DNA of 64,000 nt from an uncultured Gemmatimonadaceae bacterium (GCA_964401715.1 CAYNZV010000001.1:7649-71648); one strand, 5' to 3'. Shown: positions 28,344-51,215, counted from the stretch's first letter. Notes: generated by a model not told the origin, from the letters alone. Numbers and translations: made by a program.

Positions 28344-31283
28344 CTAGAGTAGTAGTCCGGCGTGTTCGGGAAATCCCACCAAGGCACGCACAAAGATGGA
28401 GACGGTGTTGAAGTTGCTGATCTTGCGTGCCGTCGCATCGAAGCGCCTCTGGTCGCTCATTGCTCCTAGAATGGTGAACAGCTTGTAACCGAAGTAGCTG
28501 GATTCGTTGGTAATGGTGGCGATGGATGTGCGGCGCTCGAAGCTGTCGAGGGAACGTTTCTTGTCTGCGAAGCGGTAGGGGAGAGGCCCCCATCCCTGTA
28601 TACCCACGCGTACCGTGGTGCGTGGTGCTAGCGGTCGGCTGATTAGCAGAATCGGAATAACCTCGTATTCGAACCGCATGGTCTGTTTCTGTTGCTGATC
28701 CACGAACCGCACCATCTGCAGCTTCAGCTTCGGTTGTACACTGAAGCCGCGAAGATGCCAGGTGTAGTCCACACGATTCACCGAAGTCCAGTGATCTAAT
28801 CGACGCTTGGGGGCAACAAATCCTCTTGATTGACGACCTCCCCGCTGCCAGTTCACCCGTAGCCGTACTTTCTGCACGAAGTTGAACCGCGACCACGGTT
28901 GTAACCAGTGTTCGAGATAGGTTTCGTTGACATAGCTGTTCTCAAACCAGAGCAGATCCTCGCGGGGGCGGCTGGTGAACGAGCGGTTTCCCCAGTAGAT
29001 GGTGTGCACGAAGTAGCGGTAATCACCGGTGAACTGGCGATTTTCGGTGATGATGTTGTATTCGTCGGGAATGCTGTCGCGAACGAGGCGAAAGTGGTTT
29101 TCGAAGAATACGCTGCGTAGATGTGTGGGGCCTTGCCGGCGATAGCTCAGCAAAGCGTAGCTGGATCTAGTGATGTCGCCACCAGCGATCTGCTCCACGT
29201 CGTACCGCCCTAAGGATAATTTCCAGTGCGGGGTTACGTGATACTGGGCGAACAAGTGATACCCCCGTTGGTCCCGATCGTAAGGATAATCCGGTTCCCA
29301 GTCGTCCTCCCGTTGGTCGGGTTCTTCGTTGTTGTTGCGATCCAATCCGTAGGTGTAATCGTTCGACTCCACGTCGAACATGAGGAAGGGTTCGAGATAA
29401 TCGGGCATGGCATCGCCGTTGCGATTAATGTCCGGATAGCCGTCTTTGTCCAGATCCTGAGCCATGTAGACCCCATCTGGATCCACGCCAGAGACGAGCA
29501 AACCATCGTTGCGGAACCAGCTCCCGGTGGTGTATCCGTGACGTTTGTCAGGAAACTGATCACCGTCCTCGTTGTCCTGCACCAGGTCCCAATAGATTGT
29601 TTCATTGGATAGGCCCCTGATCGTGCTGCGGCGATCAGCGACGATGCTGTCGAAGGGAACGAAGCTGCGCATGCTGGTAGTGAACCGGGGATTCATCGTG
29701 AAATATTCGCCGCCGAACTCCCAACGATTCATCCTGCGGGTGGCGTTGACATAATAGGCCGCACCGCGGTCGGAAAACCGGGCGCCGTTCTCGAAGATTG
29801 GCGCCCCTGAATTATCTGCGGGAAACTGGCGAAATACGCGCGAACGAGCATACTCCATATTCAAGTCAAAACCAGCCAACTGCAGACTCAGATCACCGCT
29901 GTAGGTGAGAATGGCAGTGTCCTCGCCGATCGCGAAGCTGACTCGCTTCAAGTTCGACAGGTCTTGCACGTTGCCACGAGCCCGTAGCACGGTGCGAAAG
30001 AAATCGCTTCTGAACAGTCCGTACTGGTCTTGTGAAAGGGTGGCGACATCCACCCGATAATCATTTCCCACCAACACTTCGACCTCGATCGATTCGAGGT
30101 ACTGTTCATCCGTAACGTCGAACAGATATGCGAGTTGCTCCTTGCCGTCAACCTGCTTGAGTCCCTTCGGAGGTTCGACCGCAAACGTGGAGAGCAGTCC
30201 GTCCAGATTGGTCTGACGGCTTACGTCTATGCCCGCTTCATGGTCGAGCCGAAAGAGGTAGTCAGCGTAGTAGGCGATTTCTCCGCGTCCCCGGTAAAAT
30301 GTGGAGAACCCCGTCTTGAGATTCGAATAGGCAGCGGGAATGAACGCTCCGGTAATCCGAGAATAAGAGCCCACCTGCGTAATGACGTCAGCTTGGTGAC
30401 GGATCACCCATGGCACGATATCCCGTCGGAACTCACCGTTGATCCGCAATGCGACGTCCTGGACAACGGCGCCGCCGACGCCGTCCCGTGGCGAGTCATC
30501 GGAAAAACGTACGACCACCCAATCCACAAGAGGTTGCTCCGGTCGCAAGATACCCGTCACACTGTTGTCAGCTCGCCCGCTGTCGTACACATGGAGGTTG
30601 GCCAGATTCAAGCCGACGTTGGCGTTACCGAGATCGGCCTGCAGCCGACCGCCCAAAAGCAAGGAAGACTCGCCGGCGAACATCGTATTTCCATCATGGT
30701 ATCGGGATCGGCGAACATAGTCGAAACCTCGTGGTGCATAGGGACGTTCGATTCGACTCGCCAGCGTGGTCACTTTGAGGCGTGGGGTTGAGAAATCGAA
30801 ACGCAATCCGCTGAAGTCGACCATGGACAGGGTGAGCGGGGTAAAACGCGCTGTGAGTCCGTCGCCCACGATGGTGCTGTAACCCCAACGGCCATAACCG
30901 TCGCGGGCGATGGCGATGTATTTGAACGCCTCAGTCCAGGTGCCTTCGTTCTTCGATATCGAGCTGCCCCAATTCAAGTCTGGATGACGGCGCTCGTGCC
31001 AGCTGAAGAGATCGTAACCGGTTATGAGCTCGTGGCCCATACCGTCGTAGAACGAGCGCGGGAAATACTCCTCGCCAGAACCATATCCCTCTATCTGCGG
31101 TATGGTGTGATGAAGGTAATTGCTGTACGGGTCGAATCCGTAATTCTGGTAGGTGTTAACGGGACGTCGAAGAAACGCGTTACCGGACACCAATTCCTTC
31201 AGGGCTATGTATGGCTCTTCACCGGAAATTGCTCCTGGTGCCAGCAAAGCCAGTATCAGGAGGCCGCGCTTGATGATGCTCAT
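28344..31283 (-). CDS. LSP-A: large secreted paralog (979 aa), putative outer-membrane beta-barrel-like protein with TSP3-like acidic repeats; family unknown
   Basis: Signal peptide MSIIKRGLLILALLAPGAISG. Shares collinear blocks with LSP-B/C/D: ARFTPLTLS, (N/S)G.RFD, SSLLLG.R.QA, VVRF(S/R)DDSP.DG.GGA.VQD, VLVGNDYRVDVA, ARGNVQDLSNLKRV.F..GE, YARS, RF.DRGAAY(Y/F)VNA, DNEDGD.FPD, DLDKDGYPDINRNGDAMPDYLEPFLMFDVESNDYTYGLDRNNNEEPDQREDDWEPDYPYDRDQRGYHLFAQ, SFE(Q)RT, SSYFGY.L. Its start overlaps the stop of the upstream gene (ATGA). Confidence 0.85.
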   Translation of the reverse strand: MSIIKRGLLILALLAPGAISGEEPYIALKELVSGNAFLRRPVNTYQNYGFDPYSNYLHHTIPQIEGYGSGEEYFPRSFYDGMGHELITGYDLFSWHERRHPDLNWGSSISKNEGTWTEAFKYIAIARDGYGRWGYSTIVGDGLTARFTPLTLSMVDFSGLRFDFSTPRLKVTTLASRIERPYAPRGFDYVRRSRYHDGNTMFAGESSLLLGGRLQADLGNANVGLNLANLHVYDSGRADNSVTGILRPEQPLVDWVVVRFSDDSPRDGVGGAVVQDVALRINGEFRRDIVPWVIRHQADVITQVGSYSRITGAFIPAAYSNLKTGFSTFYRGRGEIAYYADYLFRLDHEAGIDVSRQTNLDGLLSTFAVEPPKGLKQVDGKEQLAYLFDVTDEQYLESIEVEVLVGNDYRVDVATLSQDQYGLFRSDFFRTVLRARGNVQDLSNLKRVSFAIGEDTAILTYSGDLSLQLAGFDLNMEYARSRVFRQFPADNSGAPIFENGARFSDRGAAYYVNATRRMNRWEFGGEYFTMNPRFTTSMRSFVPFDSIVADRRSTIRGLSNETIYWDLVQDNEDGDQFPDKRHGYTTGSWFRNDGLLVSGVDPDGVYMAQDLDKDGYPDINRNGDAMPDYLEPFLMFDVESNDYTYGLDRNNNEEPDQREDDWEPDYPYDRDQRGYHLFAQYHVTPHWKLSLGRYDVEQIAGGDITRSSYALLSYRRQGPTHLRSVFFENHFRLVRDSIPDEYNIITENRQFTGDYRYFVHTIYWGNRSFTSRPREDLLWFENSYVNETYLEHWLQPWSRFNFVQKVRLRVNWQRGGRQSRGFVAPKRRLDHWTSVNRVDYTWHLRGFSVQPKLKLQMVRFVDQQQKQTMRFEYEVIPILLISRPLAPRTTVRVGIQGWGPLPYRFADKKRSLDSFERRTSIATITNESSYFGYKLFTILGAMSDQRRFDATARKISNFNTVSIFVRALVGFPEHAGLLL

Positions 31284-32174
31284 TCGGCACTGTATCTAGG
31301 CGGTTTGGGTGCCACTCCGCATTGAAGGGTAAGTTTGCAGCCGTCGAGTGGTAGTCTCACCCTTTTTCCGCCCCGGCGGTGCGACTCGATGAAAGCAAAA
31401 ATCAGCTCCAAATTTCTGCGAGCCAGTCTCACTCCACCACGAGTAGGTTTTCCGGTGTCCAAAGCTTGGACCAGTCTCAGAGTTGGACTCACGCGCTCAT
31501 AGTCGGGGAAAGTTAGGTACTCGAAATCGCCATCATTCGCATGCTCGCCGCAGTGACCGTAAGGCAGGTGGGCTTGGACCCATAATACTGGCTGGTCGTT
31601 GTTGAGCCGCATGGCGATGTCGAAGTGATGACTGGCCCCGTTGAAGAGTTCCCCCGTATTGTAGATGGAAATGGAACTCAGTCTGCCCAAGTCGCCGCTG
31701 TCGATAACGCTCTTCATCATGTCGAACGCGGGGTCCCACCGCCGATTGGTCCCCAGGTTGAAGATAACACCGTTGTGCTCGACGGACTCCACCAGCCTGT
31801 CTGCTTCTTCCATCGAGGCCGCCATTGCTTTTTCAGCGTAGATTGCAGTGGCGCCATGGTCGGCGGCGTAAACCACGATTTTCGCACGTTGCTCCGGCTG
31901 AGTGGCTACAACTGATGATGTCCGGTTTTTCCGTGTCGACCAGCTCCCGGTAGTCGAGATATTGGCGTTCCTGTGGTAGGTCGTAAAACATCCCGAACTG
32001 TTCCCTGATGTCGACTCTAAGATCGGAGCAACCCACCAAGTTTGTCCTGCTGTAGCTTTTATAAACCGCCGAGTGGTAGAGCGGTGGCGAGTGTTCTGGA
32101 TGTCCAACTATTTCGTTGTCGATGAACCCGCCCATCCGGCTGCAACCAATAACAACAGCTTTGTAGGTTTTCAT
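31280..32174 (-). pseudogene. Gfo/Idh/MocA-type oxidoreductase interrupted by a single-base frameshift (or a sequencing error)
   Basis: ORF 31833..32174 gives MKTYKAVVIGCSRMGGFIDNEI...EKPDIIS. ORF 31280..32107 continues in another frame with VATQPEQRAKIVVYAADHGATAIYAEKAMA (the EKP-like region) to the stop. The two join cleanly if one base is removed near 31910 (coding strand gac atc atc agt [t] gta gcc act cag). Confidence 0.7.
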
Positions 32175-32286
32175 TCAGTTGTCCTCCTCGGACCCGCACG
32201 GCAAGATGCTGGAGGAAAATAATCTGAAGATCTTTTGCGACCTCCTGATGCCGGGCGACGAACCTAATCCGGTCATAATGTGGAGT

Positions 32287-35208
32287 CTATATAGGCCGGC
32301 CAAAATCGGTAAACCCGAGTGTAGTGTGAACGAAAAACTCTATAAGGTCGAAGTTTCTACGGTCGGCGAATGACGAGTCGTAGTTGCGGTGGTCCTTGGT
32401 GACGCCGACGATGGTCATCAGGTCATACCCGAAGTAGCGTGATTTGTTGGTAAGGGACAACAGAGCGGTTCGCTGCTCGAAGCTGTTGAACTCGGATCTG
32501 TCGTCCCGCTTGCGGTAAGGCAGGCCGGCAATGCCCTGAATGCCAAAACGTAGTTGGGTTCGTGAGGTCAAGAAATATTCAATCTGCAATATGGGAATGG
32601 AACTCAGCTCCGAGACGATACGAACGTTTCGGTCCTGATCTATCAGATGTTGAACCATTAGCTTGTATTGGGGCGAGACACGCAGTTGCCCCAAGCGCCA
32701 GTCGTAATGGGCGCGACTCACCAGCGTGTAAAAGTCCATCCGGGCGCCGCGTTGGAAGATCTCCTTGCCCAGCTCGCCTCCCCGTTGCCAGTTGGAGCGC
32801 AGGCGCATTTGCTGTTCCAGCTGTAGCCGGGTGGGGAGTTCGGCGCCCCCTTCCAGGTAGGTTTCGCTAACGAAGCTGTCCCGGTAAGATAGCTTGTCGA
32901 TAACGAAGTCGAGGTCGAGGAATTTGACGATGCCCTGTCCCAGCGGGGCGTCGGCGATGTAGACGACCCCGCGTGACCCGAAGATGCTTTCGCGCTTCCC
33001 CGCATCGTCTCCGAACCGCATGAATTCGTCGGGAATGTCATCGCGAACCCAACGCACGCTACTCTCCAGATTCAGGAACTGCAGCCGCCCCGATCCCCGC
33101 CATCGGTATTCCGTGATCGCATACGTAGATCGATTGCGGCCGCTACCGGCGATTTCCTTTACGTCGTAATGGCCCGCTATGGCTGACCAGCGCTTTGACA
33201 GCTGGAACTGCGCGAAGAGATGGTAACCCCGTTCGTCGTGTTCGTAAGGATAATCTACCTCGGCATCGTCCTCTCGATGATCTGGTTCGTCGTTGTGATT
33301 GCGGTCGAAGCCGTAGGAATAGCTGTTGGGCTCGACGTCGAACATCAGAAATGGTTCTTGGTAATCCGGTATTCGGTTGAGGTTGCGGTTGGTGTCGGGG
33401 GCCCCGTCGTTGTCGGTGTCCTGTCCAAGCCAGACGCCGTCTAGATCAGTGCCTACATTGTCTCGGGGGACACCTATCAGATTGCCCAGCTTGATATCCG
33501 GATAGATGTCACCGTCCTCGTTGTCGTCCACTAAATACCAGTAAGCCGTATTGTTGAGTATGGCGCTGCCGCCGACCACGTATGAACGCAGCTCGGTGCC
33601 GAATTCCGGTTCGGTGGAGAAAAGCTCGGCGCCAACCGAACCCCGATCGAAACTGTGAATAGCGTTGACGAAATAGGCGGAACCGTGATCAGCGAAGCGC
33701 GGAGATTCGTCGAAGGTGGGCCGGCGGTCGATCCCGTAGGAAGGATAGCGCCAGTACGAGCTCGAGCGGGCATACTCGGCGGAGATTTCCAGGCCAGGTA
33801 GCTGCAGGTGAAGATCGGCGCTGTAGACGAAATTAGAAACCCCCTCACCCACATTGAAACGAACCCGCTTTAGGTTGGACGAATCCTGCACATTGCCTTT
33901 TGCGCGCAACGCCACGTTGTAGTAGGAGGCGGAATAGCGATCGTAATATTGGGGTGCAGTGGCACTCTTGCTGAGGTGGGCGTAAGCGACGTCGATCAGG
34001 TAATCGTTGCCCACCAGGGCTTCGATGGCTACCGAGCGGATTGTAGGTTCTTTTGATACATCGAACACGAAGACGATTTGTCGCTTACCGTCGGCCCGCA
34101 GCATCTGCTCCGGCGATTCAACCTGGTAGGTTGCTAGCAAGCCTGATATGTTGGCAATCTTGCTGATATCCCTTCCGCTCTCGTGGTCGAATCGAGTGAG
34201 ATAGTCAGCAAACAGCGGATACTCGCGGTCGCGATAGAAGTACTCATTGACGTAGGCGGTAGCAGCCGACGAGGAGGAAAAGAGGTTGTATCGCAGGGGC
34301 ACAAAGTCACCAGTTATCTGCGATACAAAACCGACCTGAATCGATGGATTTTCTTCATGACTGATCACCCGCGGTTCCAGGTCGGACCGCAACTGACCGT
34401 CGACGACGATGCCAACGTCCTGGATCAAGGCGCCATCGGTCCCGTCTTCGGGTGAGTCGTCTCGGAAGCGAACAAAAATCAGATCGATCAGGGGTTGGTC
34501 CGCTTTCAATCGACCTTTGAGGCTGTTGTTGGTTTGATGGGCGTCGTAAAGGTGTTGATTGACCCAATTCACCCCTGCTGTCAACATCCCGACATTGGCC
34601 TGCATTCGGCTGCCAAGCAAAAGGGCCGACTCCCCATCGTTACCTCTCGCCTGTGAGGACTCGCTGATCCTCGCCAGTTCACCAAAGGGTCTCTCCATGC
34701 GCGAGGCCAGAGCAGTGAGTTGCAGGTTGGGTAACAGCAAATCGAATCGTGCACCGTTGTAGTTTGCCTTGGAAAGAGTTAGGGGAGTGAAACGGGCCAT
34801 CATTGCCTCGCCGATAATGGCATAATAGCCCCAGTTTCCGTAGCCATCGCTCGTGGCCACCAGATTGTCGAAAGTGCGGGAATCCCAACCTAAGGCGCTT
34901 CCGAACCTCTCGTTGGCCGAACGTCTTTCGGTCCAGACGTAGGTGTTGTATCCGCTCGACAGGAAATTGCCCACCGGATCGTAGAATGCTTGCGCTGTAT
35001 CGGTGTAGGGAAAGAAGTGGGTAGGGTAGTTCTGAATGTTCTGCCAGGCGTAGTTTAGATATGCCGGTCGCTTGACCCGAATGTGAGGGCGTGATCTTGT
35101 TACCTCGTCGATGGGCAGCTGTGCCGTCACCTCCCCCGTTAAAATAAGCAGGGTCACAATCCACAGAGAAATGCTCGCAGAGACGTTTTTGACTGCCGGA
35201 TCCAACAT
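32287..35208 (-). CDS. LSP-B: large secreted paralog (973 aa), same family as LSP-A/C/D
   Basis: Signal peptide (ISLWIVTLLILTGEVTAQ) and a GAGGG RBS. Visibly closer to LSP-C/D than to LSP-A. Shared blocks include RPAYLNYAWQNIQNYPTHFFPY, ARFTPLTLSKANYNGARFD, LKGRLKADQPLIDLIFVRFRDDSPEDGTDGALIQD, QDTDNDGAPDTNRNLNRIPDYQEPFLMFDVEPNSYSYGFDRNHNDEPDHREDDAEVDYPYEHDERGYHLFAQ, and FNSFEQRTALLSLTNKSRYFGYDL. Confidence 0.85.
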   Translation of the reverse strand: MLDPAVKNVSASISLWIVTLLILTGEVTAQLPIDEVTRSRPHIRVKRPAYLNYAWQNIQNYPTHFFPYTDTAQAFYDPVGNFLSSGYNTYVWTERRSANERFGSALGWDSRTFDNLVATSDGYGNWGYYAIIGEAMMARFTPLTLSKANYNGARFDLLLPNLQLTALASRMERPFGELARISESSQARGNDGESALLLGSRMQANVGMLTAGVNWVNQHLYDAHQTNNSLKGRLKADQPLIDLIFVRFRDDSPEDGTDGALIQDVGIVVDGQLRSDLEPRVISHEENPSIQVGFVSQITGDFVPLRYNLFSSSSAATAYVNEYFYRDREYPLFADYLTRFDHESGRDISKIANISGLLATYQVESPEQMLRADGKRQIVFVFDVSKEPTIRSVAIEALVGNDYLIDVAYAHLSKSATAPQYYDRYSASYYNVALRAKGNVQDSSNLKRVRFNVGEGVSNFVYSADLHLQLPGLEISAEYARSSSYWRYPSYGIDRRPTFDESPRFADHGSAYFVNAIHSFDRGSVGAELFSTEPEFGTELRSYVVGGSAILNNTAYWYLVDDNEDGDIYPDIKLGNLIGVPRDNVGTDLDGVWLGQDTDNDGAPDTNRNLNRIPDYQEPFLMFDVEPNSYSYGFDRNHNDEPDHREDDAEVDYPYEHDERGYHLFAQFQLSKRWSAIAGHYDVKEIAGSGRNRSTYAITEYRWRGSGRLQFLNLESSVRWVRDDIPDEFMRFGDDAGKRESIFGSRGVVYIADAPLGQGIVKFLDLDFVIDKLSYRDSFVSETYLEGGAELPTRLQLEQQMRLRSNWQRGGELGKEIFQRGARMDFYTLVSRAHYDWRLGQLRVSPQYKLMVQHLIDQDRNVRIVSELSSIPILQIEYFLTSRTQLRFGIQGIAGLPYRKRDDRSEFNSFEQRTALLSLTNKSRYFGYDLMTIVGVTKDHRNYDSSFADRRNFDLIEFFVHTTLGFTDFGRPI

Positions 35209-35359
35209 ATTTTACCCTCTCGCTGCTTCAGCGACCTCTCTTGGTACAAGAGTATATGCAAAGCCGTGTGCCCAACGAAGCAAATATGCTTCTTCACGAG
35301 CTTGTCACTGTGACGTCAGGGCAAAGCATGCGTTGACCCGATGCCATGTCTATAGGTAA

Positions 35360-35385
35360 TGCCAATTGCAGGTAGTGCCAATTGC
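35360..35385. promoter_or_regulatory. Two copies of the decamer TGCCAATTGC (core palindrome CAATTG) spaced 16 bp start to start in a divergent intergenic region: candidate operator
   Basis: Seen at 35360..35369 and 35376..35385, between LSP-B (minus strand) and the CRTAC1-type gene (plus strand). Confidence 0.3.
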
Positions 35386-35530
35386 TTTTTAGTTTGTCAC
35401 GAGACTCGCCTCGGCGTGTCGTTCTTTGCTATTAGTGGCTGTGTAGTGCGCAGAGGACGTCTATTCCTTATTCTCAATCTGGTTTGAGTTTCACCTAGTC
35501 CCGCCCAATTTCCCAAAGGAAAGATTCGGC

Positions 35531-43560: not shown

Positions 43561-43650
43561 TGAAGCACCTTGAGAGAGGATCCTGCTGCCCGGGCGCCTT
43601 ACTGGAATCGAATGGGTTGCCGTTCTCAACTCCCAAGCCCAACGGCTGCG

Positions 43651-45486
43651 CTATTGGCGAGACAGGCCCGATCCCCTTCTCAGGGTGATCACTTGGTCAG
43701 CGTCGAAATCGCCGAACAATTCGAGCTCGCCGTCGGCCCAGCGAACTTGGACATCCAAAACCTGGTCGATGTCGCCCAAACCGACATGGATGCGAGGATC
43801 ATTGGCGGCCTGGTAGCTGTAGGCCGACTTTACGTTCCGCCTTTTCGACACGCGCCCTGCACTTAAGCGGATTGTGGCTTCCATTGCATCGGCGCCATGC
43901 CGATTGAGCACCCTGAAGCTGATCCAATGGCGCTGTTTTGCAACCACGTTGTGCAACAGGTGAACCGGTGCGTCCCGATTGACCACCAGCACGTCCATGC
44001 CGCCGTCGTTGTCGACATCGCCAAAGGCGGCTCCGCGACTGGTTGCTACCAGCACCTGCGCTGTTCCGGCAGAGCTTGTTTCCTGGAAACGGGCCCCTGG
44101 TACGCCTCTGAACAAGGAGTTGGGTTGGGCAAAACGATCCCCTTTCGGGGCGTTGTTCAGAGCGATTCGGCCGTTGGCGGTGTAGAGATCCAACCATCCA
44201 TCGTTGTCGAAGTCGATGAGAGCAACACCGAAGCGCGTTAGTAGGTCGCTGCCGACTGCCAAACCGGAAGTGGCGGTGGCATCGACAAAAAAGTCACCTT
44301 CGTTACGGAAGTAGGAGTTGGTTTCTTCGCGTAGATTGACCACCAATAGATCAAGGGTATTGTTGTCGTCTACGTCTATGACATCGACGCCCATGCCCGC
44401 TTTGGCCATGCCACTTTCGTCCAGGGCGCAGCCGCGTAGCAGCGCCTCGTCCGTAAAAGTTCCGTCGCCACCGTTGACCCAAAGCTGATTCTTGGACCCG
44501 TCATTGGCTACGAAGATGTCGCTCCATCCGTCGGAATCGAAGTCCCCGCCGACAACCCCCAGACCATATCCATATGCCTCGTGCAATCCGGCCTCGTAGG
44601 AGACTTCGGCAAAGGTTCCGTTCCCATCATTGCGGTATAGTATATCCGGAGCCTGAGCCTTGTAGACTGGCGGATAGCAGTAATCGGCCTCCCCAACTGG
44701 AGAAAAACAGGGTCGCTCCAGCGCCACTGACCAGTGCATGTAGCGCGTAGCGAAGAGGTCGAGATCGCCATCGTTATCATAGTCCGTGAACATGGTGCTG
44801 GCGCTCCAGGCGTTATCGCCAACTCCGGCCACAGCTGAGACGTCCTGAAAGCGACCACTTCCTTCGTTTCGCAGTAACACGTTGGGTCCAACGTTGGTGA
44901 TGTAAAGATCGGCATCGCCGTCGTTGTCCCAATCGCCGGTAGCGACGCCCATGCCGTAGCCCTGGTCATCGCTACCGCTGTCCTCGGTGACGTTTTCGAA
45001 GTAACCGGAGCCGTCATTGCGAAATAGTTGGTTGGCGGGTCGCAGACTTTGTGCCGCAGTTAACGATCCACCTTGCAGCAGATAAGCGTCCAGGTCACCA
45101 TCGTCGTCCATGTCGAACAGGGCCGCTCCTCCCCCCATGATCTCCGGCATATAGTAGTGCTCCTCGTGTCCCGAATCGAAGCGGAAATCGATGCCACGCT
45201 TGGCCGCCTCTTCTGCGAACCAGATCTCTTCGTGTTGCCGCTTTTCAGCTGTTCGCCCATCCCGGGTGTCGGTTGTCAACGCGGCGTGTTCGTGCTCACC
45301 GCATCCTCCCAGAGCCACCAAGTTGATACACAAGGTTACAATCCCGAGCGTGAACCGACGCCAAGGCAACCACCGCTGCGTCGTTGCGCTGAACTGTCTG
45401 GTTGTTTTCTGGACCGTGCGTGCGGACGAGTGAGGTAGAGATCGTGGGGTCAATTTGTCGCTCGATTCCATTACAGGGATCGTCAC
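43651..45486 (-). CDS. ASPIC/UnbV plus FG-GAP/VCBS repeat protein (CRTAC1-type), probable lipoprotein, copy 2
   Basis: Lipobox-like LVALGGCGE after a hydrophobic segment. Repeated GD(W/F)D.DG..D(L/I).(V/I).N motifs with LLRNEGSGRFQDVS. C-terminal UnbV_ASPIC-like block (SAYSYQAANDPRIHVGLGDIDQVLDVQVRWADG). The GTG start overlaps the TPR gene's stop (GTGA). Confidence 0.85.
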   Translation of the reverse strand: MTIPVMESSDKLTPRSLPHSSARTVQKTTRQFSATTQRWLPWRRFTLGIVTLCINLVALGGCGEHEHAALTTDTRDGRTAEKRQHEEIWFAEEAAKRGIDFRFDSGHEEHYYMPEIMGGGAALFDMDDDGDLDAYLLQGGSLTAAQSLRPANQLFRNDGSGYFENVTEDSGSDDQGYGMGVATGDWDNDGDADLYITNVGPNVLLRNEGSGRFQDVSAVAGVGDNAWSASTMFTDYDNDGDLDLFATRYMHWSVALERPCFSPVGEADYCYPPVYKAQAPDILYRNDGNGTFAEVSYEAGLHEAYGYGLGVVGGDFDSDGWSDIFVANDGSKNQLWVNGGDGTFTDEALLRGCALDESGMAKAGMGVDVIDVDDNNTLDLLVVNLREETNSYFRNEGDFFVDATATSGLAVGSDLLTRFGVALIDFDNDGWLDLYTANGRIALNNAPKGDRFAQPNSLFRGVPGARFQETSSAGTAQVLVATSRGAAFGDVDNDGGMDVLVVNRDAPVHLLHNVVAKQRHWISFRVLNRHGADAMEATIRLSAGRVSKRRNVKSAYSYQAANDPRIHVGLGDIDQVLDVQVRWADGELELFGDFDADQVITLRRGSGLSRQ

Positions 45487-46910: not shown

Positions 46911-47015
46911 CTTGCGAGTTACGCGACCGAGTTTCCGGTTGCAGCGGTTATCAGCAGGATACCGACTCGACAAGATGCCTGCCACTAAACAAGGGCAGTG
47001 CTGGACGTGCTGCCG

Positions 47016-48059
47016 TCAATCGCGCCAGAGCACCACGCCCATGTGATAGCGCTGGTGGTTCGGGATGCGTTGACAGTAGTAGGCCGTCAAAATCGTGCCA
47101 TTTTCCAGCTGCACGCTGGAGGGGTAGCCACCGTCGGTCCCGGTCGGACTGGTGTTCGACTGGTATACATCGGTCTTGAACAGCACCCTGGGATCGTCCC
47201 AGGTCACCCCTTCGTCGCGGCTCACCATGGCGCAGACGCCAAGCATGCCCCGCAAGCGCACACCATAGGTGAGCAGGATCGAACGGTCCTGCAGCATAAG
47301 TAGATGGGCGGGCATGTGGCGTGCCGGGGTCACCGGCCCGCGACAGGTCCAGGTTTCGCCACCGTCGTCGGAGGCAAAGATCTCGGTATCCGCCGTTCGC
47401 GCGGTACGACTGGCCGCCAACATCTTGCCATCGTCGAGCACCAACAGATCGGTCTCATTGTAGCGATCAGGGCCAATGAGTCGGGGATTGCCCCAGGTGC
47501 GCCCGTCGTCATCGCTGAAGTAGATCCAGGCACCGTCTTGAGTTTCGTCCTCGAGATGGCCGGCAGCGGATGAATAACAGGAAACGGCGAGCCGCTTGCC
47601 CGGCAATTGCACGATATCTCCGAACGGCACGGCGTAGCTGACACCGGGAGGGTATTCGAACTTTCCCAACTCTGTGGTCCATGACTGGCAGCCGTCTTGG
47701 CTACGACAGACCGCAGCTTCCTGGTTTCCCATTTCATCTTCGGTCCGCTCCCGGTCGAGCAACTCTCCCCGCGGAGGTGCGAACCTGCGGCCGCTGACCA
47801 GCACCACGTAGGCGCCCTCGTGGGTCAGTCCGGCCGCCAGATCTCCCCGGGTGCGGGCGGTTTCGTGATGTGCCGGTACGCTGGCGAAAGACCAGAGCCT
47901 GCCGCCATCGCGACTGATCCAGCACTCTGAGGAGCCTTCCCAGAGTTGGTGACAGGGCTCGCCAAAGATTGCAGCCACGATGCTGCCATCGGGCATCTGG
48001 GTGAGATTCGGCCAGGCACACTTGTTGTCAATTGCCACGTAGCGCTCGAGTATGTCCAT
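47016..48059 (-). CDS. BNR/Asp-box repeat sialidase-like beta-propeller, leaderless (copy 2)
   Basis: Asp boxes SRDGGRLW, SQDGCQSW, SDDDGRTW, SDDGGETW, SRDEGVTW. ATG 48059 (MDILERYVAIDN) is preceded by AAAGGA. The listed ORF start 48152 is probably too far upstream. Confidence 0.75.
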   Translation of the reverse strand: MDILERYVAIDNKCAWPNLTQMPDGSIVAAIFGEPCHQLWEGSSECWISRDGGRLWSFASVPAHHETARTRGDLAAGLTHEGAYVVLVSGRRFAPPRGELLDRERTEDEMGNQEAAVCRSQDGCQSWTTELGKFEYPPGVSYAVPFGDIVQLPGKRLAVSCYSSAAGHLEDETQDGAWIYFSDDDGRTWGNPRLIGPDRYNETDLLVLDDGKMLAASRTARTADTEIFASDDGGETWTCRGPVTPARHMPAHLLMLQDRSILLTYGVRLRGMLGVCAMVSRDEGVTWDDPRVLFKTDVYQSNTSPTGTDGGYPSSVQLENGTILTAYYCQRIPNHQRYHMGVVLWRD

Positions 48060-48251
48060 GAATATCCTTTCGTTGAAGTGACAATATACCTGTCGATAAC
48101 AGCATATACCACAACAATATTTTGGTAACCAGTCTCGAAGTTGTGCAATCATTAATTGCTTGTTTATGGCAAATTACTTGCGTATTCATATCTGCATCGA
48201 CAGGTGAGGTGGCTGACAATCGGACATTGGATGGCAACACCTGGAGGATTC

Positions 48252-51215
48252 ATGAAGATCGAGCGGTGGTGCTGCACAGGAAAGCGTCTGTTGGTAACAC
48301 TCGCTGTGTGTGTGATCGGCGAGGCAAAAGCCAGTAATTCGTTTGTCCATGAGTTGCACGAGGCGCGGCCGTTTCTGCGTTGGCAGCGTCCCACGTATAC
48401 CAACTATGCGTTACAGCATTACCAGAATTATCCCAACCACACCTTTCCTTATTGGGATGTACCTCAGTCCCGCTTAGATCCTCTCGGCAACCATCTCATC
48501 AACGGCTACAGTCTCTATGACTGGAGCGAGGTACGCACCGATGGGCTCGAGTATGGCAGCTCGATTTTCAAACAATCGGATGGGACCAGTCTCACCTGGA
48601 TCAACGTGTTCGATTACGTCGTGGCGGGCCACGACGGATACGGCGACTGGGGCTATCAGCTGATTGTTGGCGACGCGCTGCCAGCACGTTTTACGCCACT
48701 GACCTTGTCGAAGGTCAACTTCAACGGCATGCGGTTCGACCTGTCGACGAAGCATCTGAAATTCACCGGGGTTGCCTCGCGACAGGAACGGCCCAAAGAC
48801 GATATCAGGACCTATAGCGGCGCGTTTTCACCGTTGGTCCACTACGCGGATGATTCGAATTTGCTGTTGGGGACACGGGCGCAAGCGGATGTAGGCGGTT
48901 TGCATCTGGGTTTAAACTGGGTCAACCAGCATGTTTACCAGAGCACGCGTACCACGGGCAACAGTCTCAAGGGGCGATTGAAGCCGGACCAGCCGCTGAT
49001 GGACTGGATCGTCGTGCGTTTTCGCGATGATTCTCCGGAGGACGGGGTGGGTGGCGCGGCGGTGCAGGACCTGCAGCTGGTGATCAACGATGAGGCGCGA
49101 CCGGATTTGGTGCCGCAGGTGATCAGCCACCTCGGCGAGCCGCCGATCCAGGTGGGATTCGTCTCGGCCCTTACCGGGGCGTTTACTCCTTTGGCTTACG
49201 ACCTGTTCACCGCTTCTGAGGCCAGCACCCCCTACTTCAACGAATACTACTACCGCGGTCGTGATTTTCCGTTATTTGCGGATTATCTGGCGCGGTTGGA
49301 TCACGCTGCCGGTATCGATGTGCGCAAGCAGGCGAATATCCCGGGGTTGGAGGCGCTGTACGAGTTGGAATCACCGCAGCAGCTGCTGCAGGCGGACGGA
49401 GAGACACAGATTGTGTTTCTCTTCGACATTTCCCGCGAGGCTGACGTGCGCTCGGTGGTGGTGGAAGCGACGTTGGGGAACGATTACCTGGTGGATGTGG
49501 CGATGCTGTATACGAAGTCAACCACGGCTGCTTTTTACGCCGATCGTTTCTCGGGCACCTACTATCAGACGGTGAAGCGCGCCAAGGGCAATGTGCGGGA
49601 TTTTTCCAATCTGCGCCGGGTGCGATTCCAGGTGGGAGAAAACACCGGTAATTTCGTTTATGGTGCGGACGCTCACCTGGTGCTCAAGCGTCTGGAGATT
49701 TCTGCCGAGTATGCACGCTCGAGCGTGTATTCGCGCTATCCCGCTCGTGTTGATGGGGGGGCGGCGTTTGATGAGGCGCCGCGTTTTGCCGATCGCGGGG
49801 GGGCGTATTTCGTCAATGCGGTGCGGCGTTTTGATCGCGGCCTGGTAGGTGCCGAGCTGTTTTCCATCGCACCGGATTACCAGACCGAGATGCGCTCCTT
49901 TCTGCACCCCGAATCGAGTTTTTGGCTGAGTCACCTGGACGGGGTGCTCAACAGCACCATGTACTGGCAGACGGTGGATGACAACGATGACGGCGATCGT
50001 TATCCCGATATCAAATACGGCAACGCTCCGGGTTTACCGCGGGATCGCGTTGGCACCGATCTCAATGGTGTTTTTGTGAATCAGGATACCGACAACGACG
50101 GTGCTCCGGATACCAACCGCAATCTGAATCGTTTGCCGGACTACGAGGAGCCGTTTTTGATGTTTGATGTGGAGCCCAGCAGTTACGTATACGGGCTGGA
50201 TCGCAACAACAACGATGAGCCGGACCAGCGTGAAGATGACGCCGAGGTAGACTACCCGTATGAGCATGACGAGCGTGGTTACCACCTTTTTGGCCAGTGG
50301 CAGCTGACGCCTCACTGGTCGGTAGCGGCAGGTCGCTATGACATCGAGGAGATCGCCGGCAACGGCGGCAATCGGGCGATATACGGGTTATTGCGTTATC
50401 AGCGTCAGGGGGAAGGCCAGCTCAGGCGGATGTTTTTCGAGAGCAGCATGCGCCGGGTGGCGGACGACATCGCCGATGAGATTATGGTGTTCGATGACGA
50501 TGCGGGGCCGCGGGATGTACGTTTTGGGAGTCGCGGCATTGCTTACAGCCGACCGGTGCAACAAGGTTTTGGGTTGCCGGTGTATATGAAGGTGGAGTTT
50601 TTGCCCGATCAGTTGTTTTACCGGGACAGTGTGGTGAGCGACACCTATGTGGAGGGGCGGATGATGCCGTGGTCGTCGTTGGAACTGGTGCAGAAGCTGC
50701 GCGGTCGTTTCAACTGGCAGCAGGGGGGGCAGCGGCACGGGATATTCCAGCGCCAGCGGCGGGTGGATTTCTGGACCTCGGTGAGTCGTGTCCAGTATGT
50801 GTGGCATTGGAGGCAGTTGACGGTGACTTCGCAGTATAAGCTGATGCTGTCGCGGTTGATCGATCAGGAGCGCAATGTGCGGTTGCGCTCGGAGCTGCGT
50901 TCGATTCCGATTTTGCGGATGGAGTATCCGCTGCTGGCGCGAACGCAGCTGCAGGTGGGCATTCAGGGCGTAGGCCCGTTGCCGTATCGGCGCCTCGACG
51001 ACACTTCGCAGTACAACAGCTTCGAGCAGCGCACCTCGTTTATCTCGCTGATCAACCGGTCGCGTTATTTTGGTTACGACCTCATAACCACAATGGGGAT
51101 CAACGCCAACAAGATCGAACACGATTCTGCGTTTCTCGACGACCGCGATTTCGATTTGCGCACCTTCTTCATGAGGGTGCTGGTCGGATTCACTGAATTC
51201 GGAAGACCAATCTAA
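48252..51215 (+). CDS. LSP-D: large secreted paralog, mature region identical to LSP-C
   Basis: ATG 48252 is preceded by GGAGGA and gives MKIERWCCTGKRLLVTLAVCVIGEAKA, a signal peptide. The listed ORF start 48156 is probably too far upstream. The rest is as for LSP-C. Confidence 0.85.
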   Translation: MKIERWCCTGKRLLVTLAVCVIGEAKASNSFVHELHEARPFLRWQRPTYTNYALQHYQNYPNHTFPYWDVPQSRLDPLGNHLINGYSLYDWSEVRTDGLEYGSSIFKQSDGTSLTWINVFDYVVAGHDGYGDWGYQLIVGDALPARFTPLTLSKVNFNGMRFDLSTKHLKFTGVASRQERPKDDIRTYSGAFSPLVHYADDSNLLLGTRAQADVGGLHLGLNWVNQHVYQSTRTTGNSLKGRLKPDQPLMDWIVVRFRDDSPEDGVGGAAVQDLQLVINDEARPDLVPQVISHLGEPPIQVGFVSALTGAFTPLAYDLFTASEASTPYFNEYYYRGRDFPLFADYLARLDHAAGIDVRKQANIPGLEALYELESPQQLLQADGETQIVFLFDISREADVRSVVVEATLGNDYLVDVAMLYTKSTTAAFYADRFSGTYYQTVKRAKGNVRDFSNLRRVRFQVGENTGNFVYGADAHLVLKRLEISAEYARSSVYSRYPARVDGGAAFDEAPRFADRGGAYFVNAVRRFDRGLVGAELFSIAPDYQTEMRSFLHPESSFWLSHLDGVLNSTMYWQTVDDNDDGDRYPDIKYGNAPGLPRDRVGTDLNGVFVNQDTDNDGAPDTNRNLNRLPDYEEPFLMFDVEPSSYVYGLDRNNNDEPDQREDDAEVDYPYEHDERGYHLFGQWQLTPHWSVAAGRYDIEEIAGNGGNRAIYGLLRYQRQGEGQLRRMFFESSMRRVADDIADEIMVFDDDAGPRDVRFGSRGIAYSRPVQQGFGLPVYMKVEFLPDQLFYRDSVVSDTYVEGRMMPWSSLELVQKLRGRFNWQQGGQRHGIFQRQRRVDFWTSVSRVQYVWHWRQLTVTSQYKLMLSRLIDQERNVRLRSELRSIPILRMEYPLLARTQLQVGIQGVGPLPYRRLDDTSQYNSFEQRTSFISLINRSRYFGYDLITTMGINANKIEHDSAFLDDRDFDLRTFFMRVLVGFTEFGRPI
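48366..51207 (+). repeat. Copy 2 of the 2,842-bp direct repeat (partner 38324..41165)
   Basis: See copy 1. Constant offset of 10,042 bp, and both main-frame and off-frame ORF translations are identical. Confidence 0.9.

What the first reader, a model, noticed from the sequence alone, without database searches (positions are those of the whole stretch)
28344..51215. Four-member family of about 970-990-aa exported proteins (LSP-A to LSP-D) that I cannot place in any known family: candidate new outer-membrane barrel class
**Seen directly.** Four long genes (28344..31283 -, 32287..35208 -, 38201..41173 +, 48252..51215 +) each encode a protein with a cleavable-looking signal peptide. They share collinear blocks along the whole length.
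- N-proximal blocks: ARFTPLTLS, G.RFD.
- Middle blocks: VRF.DDSP.DG..GA..QD, VGNDY.VDVA, (A/K)(K/R)GNV.D.SNL(K/R)RV.F..GE.
- A very acidic stretch with thrombospondin-type-3-like Ca-binding motifs: D.D.DG.PD.NRN...(L/I/M)PDY.EPFLMFDVE.N.Y.YG.DRN.N.EPD.REDD.E.DYPY..D.RGYHLF.
- A C-terminal third of alternating hydrophobic/aromatic hairpin-like segments ending ...F(V/M)R.LVGF....

**Inference.** The alternating pattern, the aromatic-rich C-terminus and the export signal suggest large outer-membrane beta-barrels with acidic, Ca-binding surface loops. I saw no TonB-dependent-receptor plug or TonB box, no POTRA domain and no usher signature.

Four copies occur in 23 kb, next to glycan-active enzymes and FG-GAP/TPR envelope proteins. 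That suggests a non-SusC/D uptake or surface-capture device.
Basis: partly seen in the sequence, partly recalled or inferred. Interest (0 to 1): 0.85.

Follow-up and report, generated by a model that had tools for sequence, protein, structure and literature searches.

The report
Unnamed giant outer-membrane barrel family
Four neighbouring genes encode members of a large, never-named family of very big outer-membrane barrel proteins from the uncultured phylum Latescibacterota; they sit among sugar-degrading genes and are probably channels that let sugar fragments into the cell, though this has not been tested.

Summary
Four ORFs of 973-990 aa (A-D) are collinear paralogs (40-57% identity). C and D are identical over 2,842 nt.

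No Pfam or NCBIfam model reaches its threshold, PDB sequence searches find nothing, and every public source calls the relatives "hypothetical protein". The family has 829 clusters at 50% identity. All 12 genome hits that carry a taxon name are Latescibacterota MAGs, and one genome holds at least 10 paralogs.

An AlphaFold2 model (pLDDT 81, pTM 0.80) is one long run of about 24 beta-hairpin strands from about residue 103 to the C-terminus. Every significant Foldseek match is an outer-membrane barrel, with Deinococcus SlpA first. The only Pfam similarity is a consistent sub-threshold match to the SlpA barrel domain (34 of 50 members).

One is a 230-aa domain with no structural neighbour. The other is a 125-aa acidic DxDxDG segment.

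So this is a real, unannotated barrel family. It is probably a remote relative of SlpA/OmpM barrels without their SLH tether, so it is not unplaceable. Its position in sulfatase- and glycosidase-rich loci suggests a plug-less glycan channel; that is inference only.

The parts
28344..31283 (-). LSP-A, 979 aa, the most divergent of the four copies (40-45% identity to B/C/D)
   Evidence: ORF, translation, identities. It gives a weak PF21620 SlpA_C hit (E 6.7e-5, 21.9 bits against a cut-off of 35; residues 456-537).
32287..35208 (-). LSP-B, 973 aa, the copy that was modelled
   Evidence: AF2 gives pLDDT 81.3 and pTM 0.80 with about 24 long strands. All significant Foldseek matches are outer-membrane barrels. 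It is 100% identical to P0001, which lies on a 188,642-bp ENA contig.
38201..41173 (+). LSP-C, 990 aa from the GTG start (the ORF is open from TTG 38180)
48252..51215 (+). LSP-D, 987 aa from the ATG start (the ORF is open from TTG 48156)
38324..41165 (+). 2,842-nt tract in C that is 100% identical to 48366-51207 in D. It starts just after the signal peptide and ends three codons before the stop.
   Evidence: Base-by-base comparison at offset 10,042 and repeat family D1. The flanks drop to about 25-30% identity.
48366..51207 (+). The matching identical tract in D
33850..34545 (-). Insertion domain of B (residues 222-453). It carries the VRF.DDSP.DG, VGNDY.VDVA and GNV.D.SNL.RV motifs and lies between two barrel strands.
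   Evidence: DSSP of the full model. Folded alone it gives pLDDT 85.5 and pTM 0.84. It has no significant neighbour in the PDB (best E 0.06) or in BFVD (best E 3.6e-3, TM 0.29).
33238..33615 (-). Acidic loop insertion of B (residues 532-657). About 25% of residues are Asp or Glu. It holds DxDxDG-type sites DDNEDGD (560), DTDNDGAPD (597) and DRNHNDEPD (635).
   Evidence: Motif scan, charge and conservation. The invariant acidic columns appear. The same block shows up at DNA level as inverted repeats I1 and I2.
32317..32355 (-). Last barrel strand of B (residues 952-964), followed by the conserved GF(T/S)(E/D)(F/Y)GR tail. This is the candidate BAM beta-signal region.
   Evidence: DSSP, family C-termini, and F958/R960/G964/F965 at 90% or more conservation.
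31280..32107 (-). 275-aa GFO/IDH/MocA-like ORF between B and A. Its stop overlaps A's start codon by 4 bp.
   Evidence: TIGR04380 iolG-like, E 1.7e-12, partial match.
35531..37363 (+). FG-GAP / UnbV_ASPIC protein, 610 aa
   Evidence: Homologs recur beside LSP genes in L004/L005, L014, L020 and the P0120 locus.
41364..43328 (-). 654-aa protein with a type IX secretion C-terminal sorting domain
   Evidence: Por_Secre_tail and FlgD_ig; TIGR04183 at E 5e-9. It recurs with LSP genes.
43651..45486 (-). Second FG-GAP / UnbV_ASPIC protein, 611 aa
45483..46985 (-). TPR protein, 500 aa, overlapping the start of the FG-GAP/ASPIC gene by 4 bp
   Evidence: cluster c6.
47016..48152 (-). BNR_2 (sialidase-like beta-propeller) protein, divergent from D
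51305..53497 (+). 730-aa GHL6 / GH42-trimerisation-domain-like glycosidase candidate, directly downstream of D
53569..55158 (+). 'P520' protein, 529 aa, with no signal peptide and no Pfam hit. One window paralog (4582-6204) has a faint GH130-like hit.

Best explanation
LSP-A to LSP-D are paralogs of a large, unnamed protein family centred on Candidatus Latescibacterota.

Anatomy. Each protein has a Sec signal peptide and a conserved aromatic-rich N-terminal segment of about 70 residues. The rest is one giant outer-membrane beta-barrel of about 24 strands (range 22-26) that runs to the C-terminus. Two large insertions interrupt the barrel. One is a 230-residue alpha/beta domain whose fold has no solved neighbour. 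The other is a 125-residue acidic segment with three DxDxDG-type, probably Ca2+-binding, loops. By loop-length parity both insertions, and all other long loops, lie on the cell-surface side.

Ancestry. The barrel is probably a remote relative of the SlpA/OmpM barrel but lacks the SLH domain and coiled coil that make those proteins peptidoglycan tethers.

Function. The most likely role is a TonB-independent channel without a recognisable TBDT plug domain, admitting oligosaccharides released from sulfated or complex glycans. The surface insertions would act as a Ca2+-stabilised cap or substrate filter. Different paralogs would serve different catabolic loci.

C and D were homogenised by recent gene conversion over the mature coding region.

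Shown: the family, its size and taxonomy, the absence of annotation, the predicted strand architecture, the barrel-type structural matches and the gene context. Inferred: barrel closure, loop sidedness, metal binding, transport function and substrate.
For: Family and annotation:
- 128 clusters at 90% identity, all unnamed.
- 829 representatives at 50% identity, 263 of them with E <= 1e-30.
- Named members are all 'hypothetical protein'.
- 12 of 13 genome loci are Latescibacterota MAGs; the other is an unclassified 'uncultured bacterium' MAG.
- At least 10 paralogs lie on one 5.87-Mb chromosome.

Barrel:
- The AF2 model has pLDDT 81.3 and pTM 0.80. It has 23-24 strands of 8-19 residues in strict hairpin succession from residue 103 to 964.
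- All 12 Foldseek hits with E <= 1e-3 are outer-membrane barrels: SlpA 8ae1 (E 5e-9), 8agd/7zgx, MtrB, BtuB, FpvA, SprA and LptD.
- 22 of 23 strands have a membrane-favourable alternating face. The mean Wimley-White value is -0.39, against -0.10 for strands of the insertion domain.
- PF21620 SlpA_C is the only Pfam family touched: 34 of 50 members, best E 3.5e-8. The two stretches printed fall at HMM positions about 233-330.

No plug or partner:
- No Plug, TonB_dep_Rec, POTRA, Usher or SLH hit at E <= 1.
- No SusD-like neighbour.

Insertions:
-. The invariant columns of the acidic segment are almost all Asp, Asn, Glu or Gly.
- D. radiodurans SlpA also has barrel insertions stabilised by Asp-based metal sites (PMC9388160).

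Context:
- Window: two sulfatases, three BNR proteins, a GH-like protein, an SGNH hydrolase, GFO/IDH/MocA proteins, a DctM transporter and PhoX.
- Other loci: GH38 directly upstream (L017); sulfatases, GH172, a deacetylase and BNR (L022); a pectate-lyase-like beta-helix and AXE1 (L020); sulfatase and DHDPS (L018); F5/8-type-C proteins.
- OmpM, the smaller relative of SlpA, is reported in the title of PMC10628300 to act as a nutrient uptake channel.
- Many glycan enzymes in the window lack signal peptides. That implies oligosaccharides are imported before they are broken down.
Against: - I had only the DSSP summary of the model, not its coordinates. Barrel closure, exact strand number, pore size and whether the insertions cap or plug the lumen were not seen directly.
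- TM-scores to all known barrels are low (0.14-0.24).
- All SlpA_C hits with a printed bit score are below Pfam's gathering score. HMM searches against PDB sequences never recover SlpA.
- The loop-side assignment rests on treating residues 883-901 as one kinked strand and on an odd number of poorly modelled strands before residue 115 (pLDDT 57-73).
- The C-terminus does not end in an aromatic residue, so the beta-signal is non-canonical.
- The gene-context argument is weak because Latescibacterota genomes are rich in CAZymes and sulfatases everywhere. No background enrichment test was run.
- No neighbour is universally conserved.
- These genomes also encode CarboxypepD_reg/Plug receptors (PMC4454575). 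LSPs are therefore not the only possible glycan importers.
Confidence: 0.5

Rival explanations
1. LSPs are accessory or anchor barrels for the type IX secretion pathway. They would hold or help export the neighbouring CTD-bearing protein and the FG-GAP/ASPIC and TPR proteins, much as PorP/SprF-type barrels are encoded next to their cargo in Bacteroidota.
For: A module of a T9SS-tail protein (about 650 aa), a TPR protein and an FG-GAP/ASPIC protein recurs beside LSP genes. It is seen in the window, L004/L005 and L014, L020, where it lies directly upstream on the same strand, and the P0120 locus. SprA appears among the Foldseek hits (E about 1e-4).
Against: Most LSP loci examined lack any T9SS-tail gene within 10 kb: L001, L002, L003/L016, L006/L007, L009-L013, L017, L018, L021 and L022. 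The SprA match is no better than the matches to unrelated barrels. PorP/SprF barrels, from my own knowledge, are small (about 14 strands) and show no similarity here.
Confidence: 0.15
2. LSPs are structural outer-membrane scaffold proteins like D. radiodurans SlpA, with occluded pores, rather than transport channels.
For: SlpA is the best structural match and the only sequence match. SlpA's own metal-stabilised lumen insertions led its authors to suggest it may function as a membrane scaffold rather than a pore (PMC9388160). LSPs likewise carry large insertions rich in acidic residues.
Against: There is no SLH domain or coiled coil to reach the peptidoglycan. Ten or more divergent paralogs per genome, scattered through catabolic loci, is the pattern of substrate-specific transporters, not of one abundant scaffold.
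Confidence: 0.12
3. LSPs are energised transporters that depend on TonB or a similar system. The conserved N-terminal 70 residues, or the 230-residue insertion, would act as a non-canonical plug.
For: The N-terminal segment (residues about 40-110) is highly conserved but modelled with low confidence. Barrel size is in the TBDT range, and BtuB and FpvA appear among the Foldseek hits. From my own knowledge, usher barrels show that a plug can be inserted between two barrel strands.
Against: No Plug or TonB_dep_Rec hit at E <= 1. No recognisable TonB box in the conserved N-terminus. No ExbB, ExbD or TonB genes among the window ORFs scanned. By loop parity the insertion lies on the surface side. 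Foldseek ranks SlpA and MtrB above the TBDTs.
Confidence: 0.08
4. LSPs are export or other conduits, such as a polysaccharide exporter, a pilus usher or an MtrB-like sheath for electron-transfer proteins.
For: MtrB (E 8.7e-7) and LptD are among the Foldseek hits. A barrel of about 24 strands is usher-sized.
Against: No ORF in the window contains a CxxCH motif. There is no Usher model hit and there are no usher C-terminal domains, because the protein ends with the barrel. No Wza, Wzc, glycosyltransferase or chaperone genes were found among the neighbours scanned. The neighbouring genes are catabolic.
Confidence: 0.05
5. LSPs are not barrels. They would be soluble or surface multi-domain beta-rich proteins, and the AF2 model is misleading.
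For: Coordinates were not inspected. TM-scores to known barrels are low. Several strands are only weakly hydrophobic on the Kyte-Doolittle scale.
Against: pTM is 0.80 for 972 residues. There are 23-24 consecutive long hairpin strands joined by 2-5-residue turns. Every significant Foldseek hit is an outer-membrane barrel, the top five with probability 1.00 and the other seven with 0.87-0.99. Pfam independently points to a barrel domain. The strands show interfacial amphipathicity.
Confidence: 0.04

Closest known systems
SlpA of Deinococcus radiodurans / Thermus (PF21620 SlpA_C; PDB 8ae1, 7zgx) and the wider SlpA/OmpM family
   Same: Both are very large single-chain outer-membrane beta-barrels. 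SlpA is the best Foldseek match (E 5e-9, probability 1.0). SlpA_C is the only Pfam similarity: 34 of 50 members, with the two printed stretches at the same HMM region. Both carry barrel insertions rich in Asp-based metal sites (PMC9388160). OmpM relatives act as nutrient channels according to the title of PMC10628300.
   Different: LSPs have no SLH domain and no coiled-coil stalk. They have about 24 strands rather than 30. All printed hit scores are below the Pfam gathering score, and PDB sequence profile searches find nothing. TM-score is only 0.17. LSPs occur in an FCB-group phylum rather than in Terrabacteria. There are ten or more paralogs per genome inside catabolic loci, instead of one abundant tether. 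The 230-residue insertion domain has no counterpart.
SusC-like / TonB-dependent transporters of Bacteroidota polysaccharide utilisation loci
   Same: Both are outer-membrane barrels of about 1,000 aa. Both are multiplied into many paralogs per genome and embedded among glycosidases, sulfatases and surface glycan-binding proteins. FG-GAP/ASPIC proteins are also PUL neighbours in marine Bacteroidota (my own knowledge, not tested here).
   Different: LSPs have no Plug domain, no TonB_dep_Rec barrel signature, no CarboxypepD_reg domain and no adjacent SusD-like gene. TBDTs rank below SlpA and MtrB in the fold search.
Substrate-specific porins encoded in catabolic operons (LamB, chitoporin, OprB, Occ/OprD)
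   Same: The proposed mode of action is the same: a passive, TonB-independent channel encoded next to the enzymes for its substrate. Occ, chitoporin and general porins appear among the weaker Foldseek hits.
   Different: Those barrels have 16-18 strands and 350-450 aa. LSPs are more than twice as large and carry two large loop insertions. No sequence similarity was detected.
DxDxDG calcium-binding loops (EF-hand-like; thrombospondin type 3 repeats)
   Same: Sites of the DxDxDG or DxNxDG type are invariant or nearly invariant across the family. A chance-level alignment to the parvalbumin EF-hand loop falls on the same site (E 1.3).
   Different: Pfam TSP_3 gives no hit. The cysteines that define TSP type 3 repeats are absent; A and B have no Cys at all. 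Metal binding has not been tested.

Membership tests
SlpA/OmpM outer-membrane-to-peptidoglycan connectors | N-terminal SLH domain | tested here: not met
   No SLH or any other N-terminal Pfam hit at E <= 1 in any of the four proteins. None in 50 family members at E <= 0.01.
SlpA/OmpM outer-membrane-to-peptidoglycan connectors | Long trimeric coiled-coil stalk between the SLH domain and the barrel | tested here: not met
   In the AF2 DSSP the only helix before the barrel is the signal peptide (residues 7-22). Barrel strands begin by about residue 103.
SlpA/OmpM outer-membrane-to-peptidoglycan connectors | Barrel matching PF21620 (SlpA_C) at the gathering score | tested here: not met
   Protein A scores 21.9 bits against a cut-off of 35. 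34 of 50 members hit at E <= 0.01, best E 3.5e-8. Printed stretches cover only HMM positions about 233-330 of 656. This is consistent with remote homology, not membership.
SlpA/OmpM outer-membrane-to-peptidoglycan connectors | Structural match to the 30-stranded SlpA barrel | tested here: inconclusive
   8ae1 is the top Foldseek hit (E 5.2e-9, probability 1.00), but TM-score is 0.17 and RMSD 23 A. DSSP suggests about 24 strands.
SlpA/OmpM outer-membrane-to-peptidoglycan connectors | Homotrimer | not testable with these tools
   No multimer prediction was available.
TonB-dependent transporter / SusC | N-terminal Plug domain (PF07715) | tested here: not met
   No hit at E <= 1.
TonB-dependent transporter / SusC | 22-strand TonB_dep_Rec barrel signature (PF00593 and related models) | tested here: not met
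   No hit in Pfam or NCBIfam. TBDT structures match only at Foldseek E of 5e-5 or weaker.
TonB-dependent transporter / SusC | TonB box near the mature N-terminus | tested here: inconclusive
   I saw no conserved (D/E)T(I/L/V)VV(T/S)A-like string in the N-terminal consensus. I did not run a formal motif search.
TonB-dependent transporter / SusC | Adjacent SusD-family lipoprotein gene | tested here: not met
   No SusD-like Pfam family in any window neighbour or in nine annotated homologous loci.
Chaperone-usher pathway usher (PapC/FimD) | Usher barrel model (PF00577) plus periplasmic N- and C-terminal domains | tested here: not met
   No Pfam hit. The protein ends with the last barrel strand. 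No usher appears in the top 50 Foldseek hits.
MtrB/PioB-type porin-cytochrome conduits | Partner multihaem cytochrome genes | tested here: not met
   No CxxCH motif in any window ORF, despite a Foldseek hit to MtrB at E 8.7e-7.
Outer-membrane beta-barrel proteins (general class) | Cleavable signal peptide and an uninterrupted series of antiparallel amphipathic strands | tested here: met
   Signal-peptide-like N-termini. 23-24 hairpin strands. 22 of 23 strands have a membrane-favourable alternating face.
Outer-membrane beta-barrel proteins (general class) | Closed barrel with first and last strands paired | not testable with these tools
   The model coordinates are not exposed. Closure is inferred from pTM 0.80 and from the barrel-only Foldseek hits.
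Outer-membrane beta-barrel proteins (general class) | C-terminal BAM beta-signal ending in an aromatic residue | tested here: inconclusive
   The last strand FFVR.L.GF is conserved but is followed by a 7-8-residue tail, (T/S)(E/D)(F/Y)GR.(I/L). The terminal residue is aliphatic.
Thrombospondin type 3 repeat | PF02412 match and the Cys-containing DxDxDGxxDxxDxC repeat | tested here: not met
   No Pfam hit at E <= 1. A and B contain no Cys. Only generic DxDxDG sites are present.

The most novel reading that the evidence does not exclude
LSPs are the pore of a previously unrecognised glycan capture-and-import system of Latescibacterota that works without TonB or SusD. A Ca2+-loaded acidic cap and a new-fold surface domain on a barrel of about 24 strands would bind anionic or sulfated oligosaccharides. 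They would act together with surface FG-GAP/ASPIC, TPR and T9SS-anchored partners, possibly as hetero-oligomers of tandem paralogs. This would be the phylum's functional counterpart of SusC/D.
Probability: 0.2. Interest if true: 0.8.

Novelty: new variant of a known kind. Interest (0 to 1): 0.55.

Why it matters
Latescibacterota are widespread, uncultured degraders of complex and sulfated polysaccharides in sediments. This family also occurs in MAGs that NCBI labels Gemmatimonadota.

How substrates cross the Latescibacterota outer membrane has only been assumed, as 'non-specific porins' (PMC4454575). A family of 829 clusters of about 24-strand barrels, with ten or more paralogs per genome and a position inside catabolic loci, is a concrete candidate for that missing step.

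It would also extend SlpA/OmpM-type barrels beyond Terrabacteria and beyond a tethering role. The family adds a 230-residue domain with no structural neighbour. It is well defined enough to deserve a curated family model and an experimental structure.

Tried and rejected
- HMM profile searches of PDB sequences with 4-, 78- and 50-sequence alignments found nothing significant. The only matches, to the EcoR124II M protein (E 0.019) and parvalbumin (E 1.3), are chance-level.
- NCBIfam gave no hit.
- I suspected the Pfam-less neighbours of about 520 aa ('P520') might be SusD-like partners. I rejected this: they have no signal peptide, one shows a faint GH130-like similarity, and they are not consistently adjacent.
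- I folded the insertion domain alone, hoping to recognise a CBM or lectin fold. Neither PDB nor BFVD gave a significant match. The weak BFVD hits to F5/8-type-C proteins (E 0.017-0.16, TM 0.18-0.29) are only a hint.
- The Kyte-Doolittle amphipathicity test was uninformative because it penalises Tyr and Trp. I replaced it with the Wimley-White interfacial scale.
- The MtrB-like electron conduit idea fails for lack of cytochromes.
- Literature searches on Latescibacteria/Latescibacterota combined with outer membrane, TonB or sulfatase found no description of this family.
- tRNA and Rfam scans of the window were empty.

Full report

Yes. The four ORFs are at the stated positions and strands, and I translated each of them. 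They align collinearly from end to end. BLASTP identities are A-B 40%, A-C 45%, B-C 57% and C-D 97%, all with E = 0.

Most of these remain invariant or at least 90% conserved in a 78-sequence family alignment. Each protein starts with a plausible Sec signal peptide. In the model of B, residues 7-22 form a helix followed by a non-conserved linker.

There are three corrections.
- B's C-terminal strand reads FVHTTLGF, not F(V/M)R.LVGF.
- C and D are not independent copies (see section 7).
- The 'thrombospondin type 3' resemblance is only a DxDxDG-type motif. Pfam TSP_3 does not hit at E <= 1, and A and B contain no cysteine.

**2. Is it a known family?**

Not at the threshold of any curated resource.
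- Pfam gives a single sub-threshold hit, for A only: PF21620, the beta-barrel domain of the Deinococcus/Thermus protein SlpA (E 6.7e-5, 21.9 bits against a gathering score of 35).
- NCBIfam gives nothing.
- HMM profiles built from 4, 78 or 50 sequences find no significant chain among PDB sequences.

The family itself is large.
- The word-indexed search found 128 clusters at 90% identity. Nearly all are 950-1,000 aa and none carries a functional name.
- The exhaustive profile search of 1.84 billion representatives found 829 proteins with E <= 1e-3 and 263 with E <= 1e-30.
- These include a subgroup of about 870-940 aa with the same architecture but a more divergent N-terminal third.
- Members that do carry a public name are all 'hypothetical protein'.

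In the species-representative genome collection, 12 of the 13 loci found are in MAGs of Candidatus Latescibacterota. The other is an unclassified 'uncultured bacterium' MAG. That scan used peptide patterns from B and is therefore biased towards close relatives. One 222-member cluster includes proteins that NCBI labels Gemmatimonadota bacterium. Paralogy is extensive: ten of the listed clusters lie on one 5.87-Mb chromosome.

**3. What is the fold?**

AlphaFold2 on the 78-sequence alignment gave a confident model of B (mean pLDDT 81.3, pTM 0.80). The tool returns only confidence values and secondary structure, not coordinates.

Its DSSP string shows the following.
- A signal-peptide helix.
- A conserved but poorly modelled N-terminal segment (residues about 40-110, pLDDT 31-73) with four short strands.
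- Then 23-24 strands of 8-19 residues in strict hairpin succession, from about residue 103 to 964. Most are joined by turns of 2-5 residues.

Two very large insertions interrupt this series, at residues 222-453 and 532-657. Smaller loops lie at 171-191, 487-502, 723-775 and 808-820.

Foldseek against the PDB returns twelve hits with E <= 1e-3, and every one is an outer-membrane beta-barrel. The order is D. radiodurans SlpA (8ae1, E 5.2e-9; 8agd and 7zgx, 4.5e-8), MtrB (8.7e-7), BtuB, FpvA, the T9SS translocon SprA and LptD. TM-scores are low (0.14-0.24), so no known barrel is a close match.

As an independent sequence-level check, 22 of 23 predicted barrel strands have one alternating face that favours the membrane interface on the Wimley-White scale. 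The mean is -0.39 kcal/mol, against -0.10 for strands of the insertion domain.

**4. Relationship to SlpA**

When 50 diverse members were scanned individually, PF21620 was the only Pfam family matched. It hit 34 of the 50, with a best E of 3.5e-8. That set was partly chosen from members already known to carry the hit. The two stretches actually printed fall at HMM positions about 233-330, on the strands just after the first insertion.

Together with SlpA being the top structural match, this points to remote homology of at least part of the barrel. The defining features of SlpA/OmpM proteins are an N-terminal SLH domain, a trimeric coiled-coil stalk and, for SlpA, a 30-stranded barrel (PMC9388160). 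Here the SLH domain and stalk are absent and the strand count is about 24. I therefore do not file LSPs as SlpA/OmpM members.

A parallel worth noting is that SlpA also has insertions positioned within the pore, stabilised by Asp-based metal sites.

**5. The insertions and their side of the membrane**

The 232-residue insertion folds confidently on its own (pLDDT 85.5, pTM 0.84). It forms a beta-sandwich-like domain with three helices.
- It has no significant neighbour in the PDB (best E 0.06).
- It has none in BFVD either (best E 3.6e-3, TM 0.29). A few very weak hits there are to F5/8-type-C proteins.
- The same module appears at the C-terminus of P0257, an otherwise unrelated LRR/Receptor-L protein. 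That protein ends exactly where the domain ends, so it may be truncated.

The 126-residue acidic insertion is about 25% Asp and Glu. It contains DDNEDGD, DTDNDGAPD and DRNHNDEPD, and its invariant columns are nearly all Asp, Asn, Glu or Gly. These are DxDxDG-type loops, so Ca2+ binding is likely but untested.

The sidedness is my inference, as follows. The last strand (952-964) must end in the periplasm. I read 883-901 as one kinked strand around the conserved GxQGxGPLPYR motif, because a 5-residue strand could not cross the membrane beside neighbours of 16-18 residues. Counting back from the C-terminus on that basis, every 2-5-residue turn falls on the periplasmic side and every long loop, including both insertions, falls on the cell surface. 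This is the usual rule for outer-membrane proteins. It requires an odd number of the poorly modelled N-terminal strands to belong to the barrel, which gives 24 strands or possibly 26.

**6. Gene context**

In the window, B is followed by a terminator-like hairpin. Next comes a 275-aa GFO/IDH/MocA-like ORF whose stop overlaps A's start codon by 4 bp. C and D flank a block on the minus strand: a T9SS-CTD protein, an FG-GAP/ASPIC protein, a TPR protein and a BNR protein. D is followed by a GHL6/GH42M-like protein and a 'P520' protein.

The rest of the window encodes two sulfatases, further BNR/Sortilin proteins, PhoX, amidohydrolases, PhyH dioxygenases, an esterase and a TRAP DctM subunit. Most of these enzymes lack signal peptides.

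Homologous loci look alike.
- GH38 lies directly upstream in L017.
- L022 has sulfatases, GH172, a polysaccharide deacetylase and BNR.
- L020 has a pectate-lyase-like beta-helix and AXE1.
- L018 has a sulfatase and DHDPS.
- L014 and the P0120 locus have F5/8-type-C proteins.

No neighbour is universal. One module does recur in five loci: a T9SS-tail protein plus TPR plus FG-GAP/ASPIC (window, L004/L005, L014, L020, P0120 locus). None of the annotated loci contains a SusD-like gene. Only L021 has a CarboxypepD_reg/Plug gene, about 7 kb away.

The published genomic analysis of Latescibacteria simply assumes 'non-specific porins' for passage across the outer membrane (PMC4454575). I found no paper describing this family.

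**7. C and D**

The two genes share 2,842 nt of perfect identity: 38324-41165 equals 48366-51207. Flanking identity drops at once to the random level. The tract begins at the first conserved codon after the two different signal peptides and ends three codons before the stop.

Recent gene conversion, bounded by the limits of homology between two older paralogs, is the simplest reading. An assembly duplication cannot be excluded without the reads.

**8. Mechanism and confidence**

I rate 'exported giant outer-membrane barrel of an unannotated family' at about 0.9.

The functional reading is a channel without a recognisable TBDT plug, TonB-independent, for glycan-derived oligosaccharides, with a Ca2+-stabilised surface cap acting as a filter or binding site. 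It rests on four points:
- the paralog expansion;
- the catabolic gene context;
- the cytoplasmic location of many of the neighbouring enzymes;
- the absence of Plug, TonB-box and SusD features.

I rate the whole statement at about 0.5.

The rivals are:
- a T9SS-linked anchor or accessory barrel (0.15);
- an SlpA-like scaffold (0.12);
- an energised transporter with a non-canonical plug (0.08);
- export, usher or electron conduits (0.05; there are no cytochromes);
- not a barrel at all (0.04).

**9. Novelty and verdict**

The kind of protein, a large outer-membrane beta-barrel, is known, and a remote link to SlpA-type barrels is likely. The following are new:
- the family as such;
- its architecture, with no tether, a new-fold insertion domain and an acidic DxDxDG cap;
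- its phylum;
- its PUL-like deployment.

I class it as a new variant of a known kind, with interest 0.55. It would matter more if it proves to be the glycan import route of this phylum.

Noticed in passing
window 38324-41165 and 48366-51207: The mature coding regions of LSP-C and LSP-D are 100% identical over 2,842 nt. The edges are sharp: just after the divergent signal peptides, and three codons before the stop. This is either recent gene conversion or an assembly duplication.
   Followed up: partly
window 472-2034 (-), 4582-6204 (+), 53569-55158 (+); also L001, L002, L006, L009, L010, L014: A second unannotated family ('P520') of about 450-540 aa. Members have no signal peptide and no Pfam hit; one shows a faint GH130-like match (NF052550, E 5e-5). 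There are three copies in the window, and members recur within 10 kb of LSP genes in seven of the loci examined. It is probably a cytoplasmic glycan-processing enzyme.
   Followed up: partly
window 41364-46985 (-); L004/L005, L014, L020, P0120 locus: A recurrent three-gene module lies next to LSP genes: a T9SS-CTD protein of about 650 aa, a TPR protein and an FG-GAP/UnbV_ASPIC protein. In L020 it lies directly upstream of two tandem LSP genes on the same strand.
   Followed up: partly
L014 2458-12937; L018 1-12964; P0120 locus: Some genomes carry three barrel paralogs (about 900, 910 and 940-990 aa) in one operon. With them come F5/8-type-C proteins or a 1,080-aa TPR (YfiO-like) protein plus a DUF4159 protein. 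This could indicate hetero-oligomeric barrels or a larger envelope machine.
   Followed up: no
P0257 residues 656-857 (representative library hit): The LSP insertion domain also occurs at the C-terminus of an LRR / Receptor-L-domain protein with no barrel. That protein ends exactly at the end of the domain, so it may be truncated or chimeric.
   Followed up: partly
window 6323-7132 (-) and 25019-25783 (+); L017, L021, L022: PhyH-family Fe(II)/2-oxoglutarate dioxygenase paralogs recur beside sulfatases and LSP genes, with up to four in L022. Their role in these loci is unexplained.
   Followed up: no
window 28000-41500: Sigma-70-type promoter matches are depleted: 1 found against 7.8 +/- 2.4 expected. 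This may indicate a different promoter consensus in this organism. A hairpin with a 15-bp stem at 41305-41338 lies between the convergent LSP-C and T9SS-CTD genes. A terminator-like site at 32226-32245 (-) follows LSP-B.
   Followed up: no
window 1-64000: There is no tRNA gene and no Rfam family at gathering score anywhere in the 64 kb. Many sulfatase- and GH-like ORFs lack signal peptides, which suggests cytoplasmic processing of imported oligosaccharides.
   Followed up: partly
cluster of P0061 (222 members; e.g. MYB71725.1, MDE2810218.1): NCBI labels close LSP homologs as coming from 'Gemmatimonadota bacterium' MAGs. Either the family extends beyond Latescibacterota or those MAGs are misclassified.
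   Followed up: no
L021 19969-21630 (-): A 553-aa CarboxypepD_reg + Plug (TBDT/SusC-like N-terminal) gene lies 7 kb from an LSP paralog. These genomes therefore also have conventional TonB-dependent receptors.
   Followed up: no
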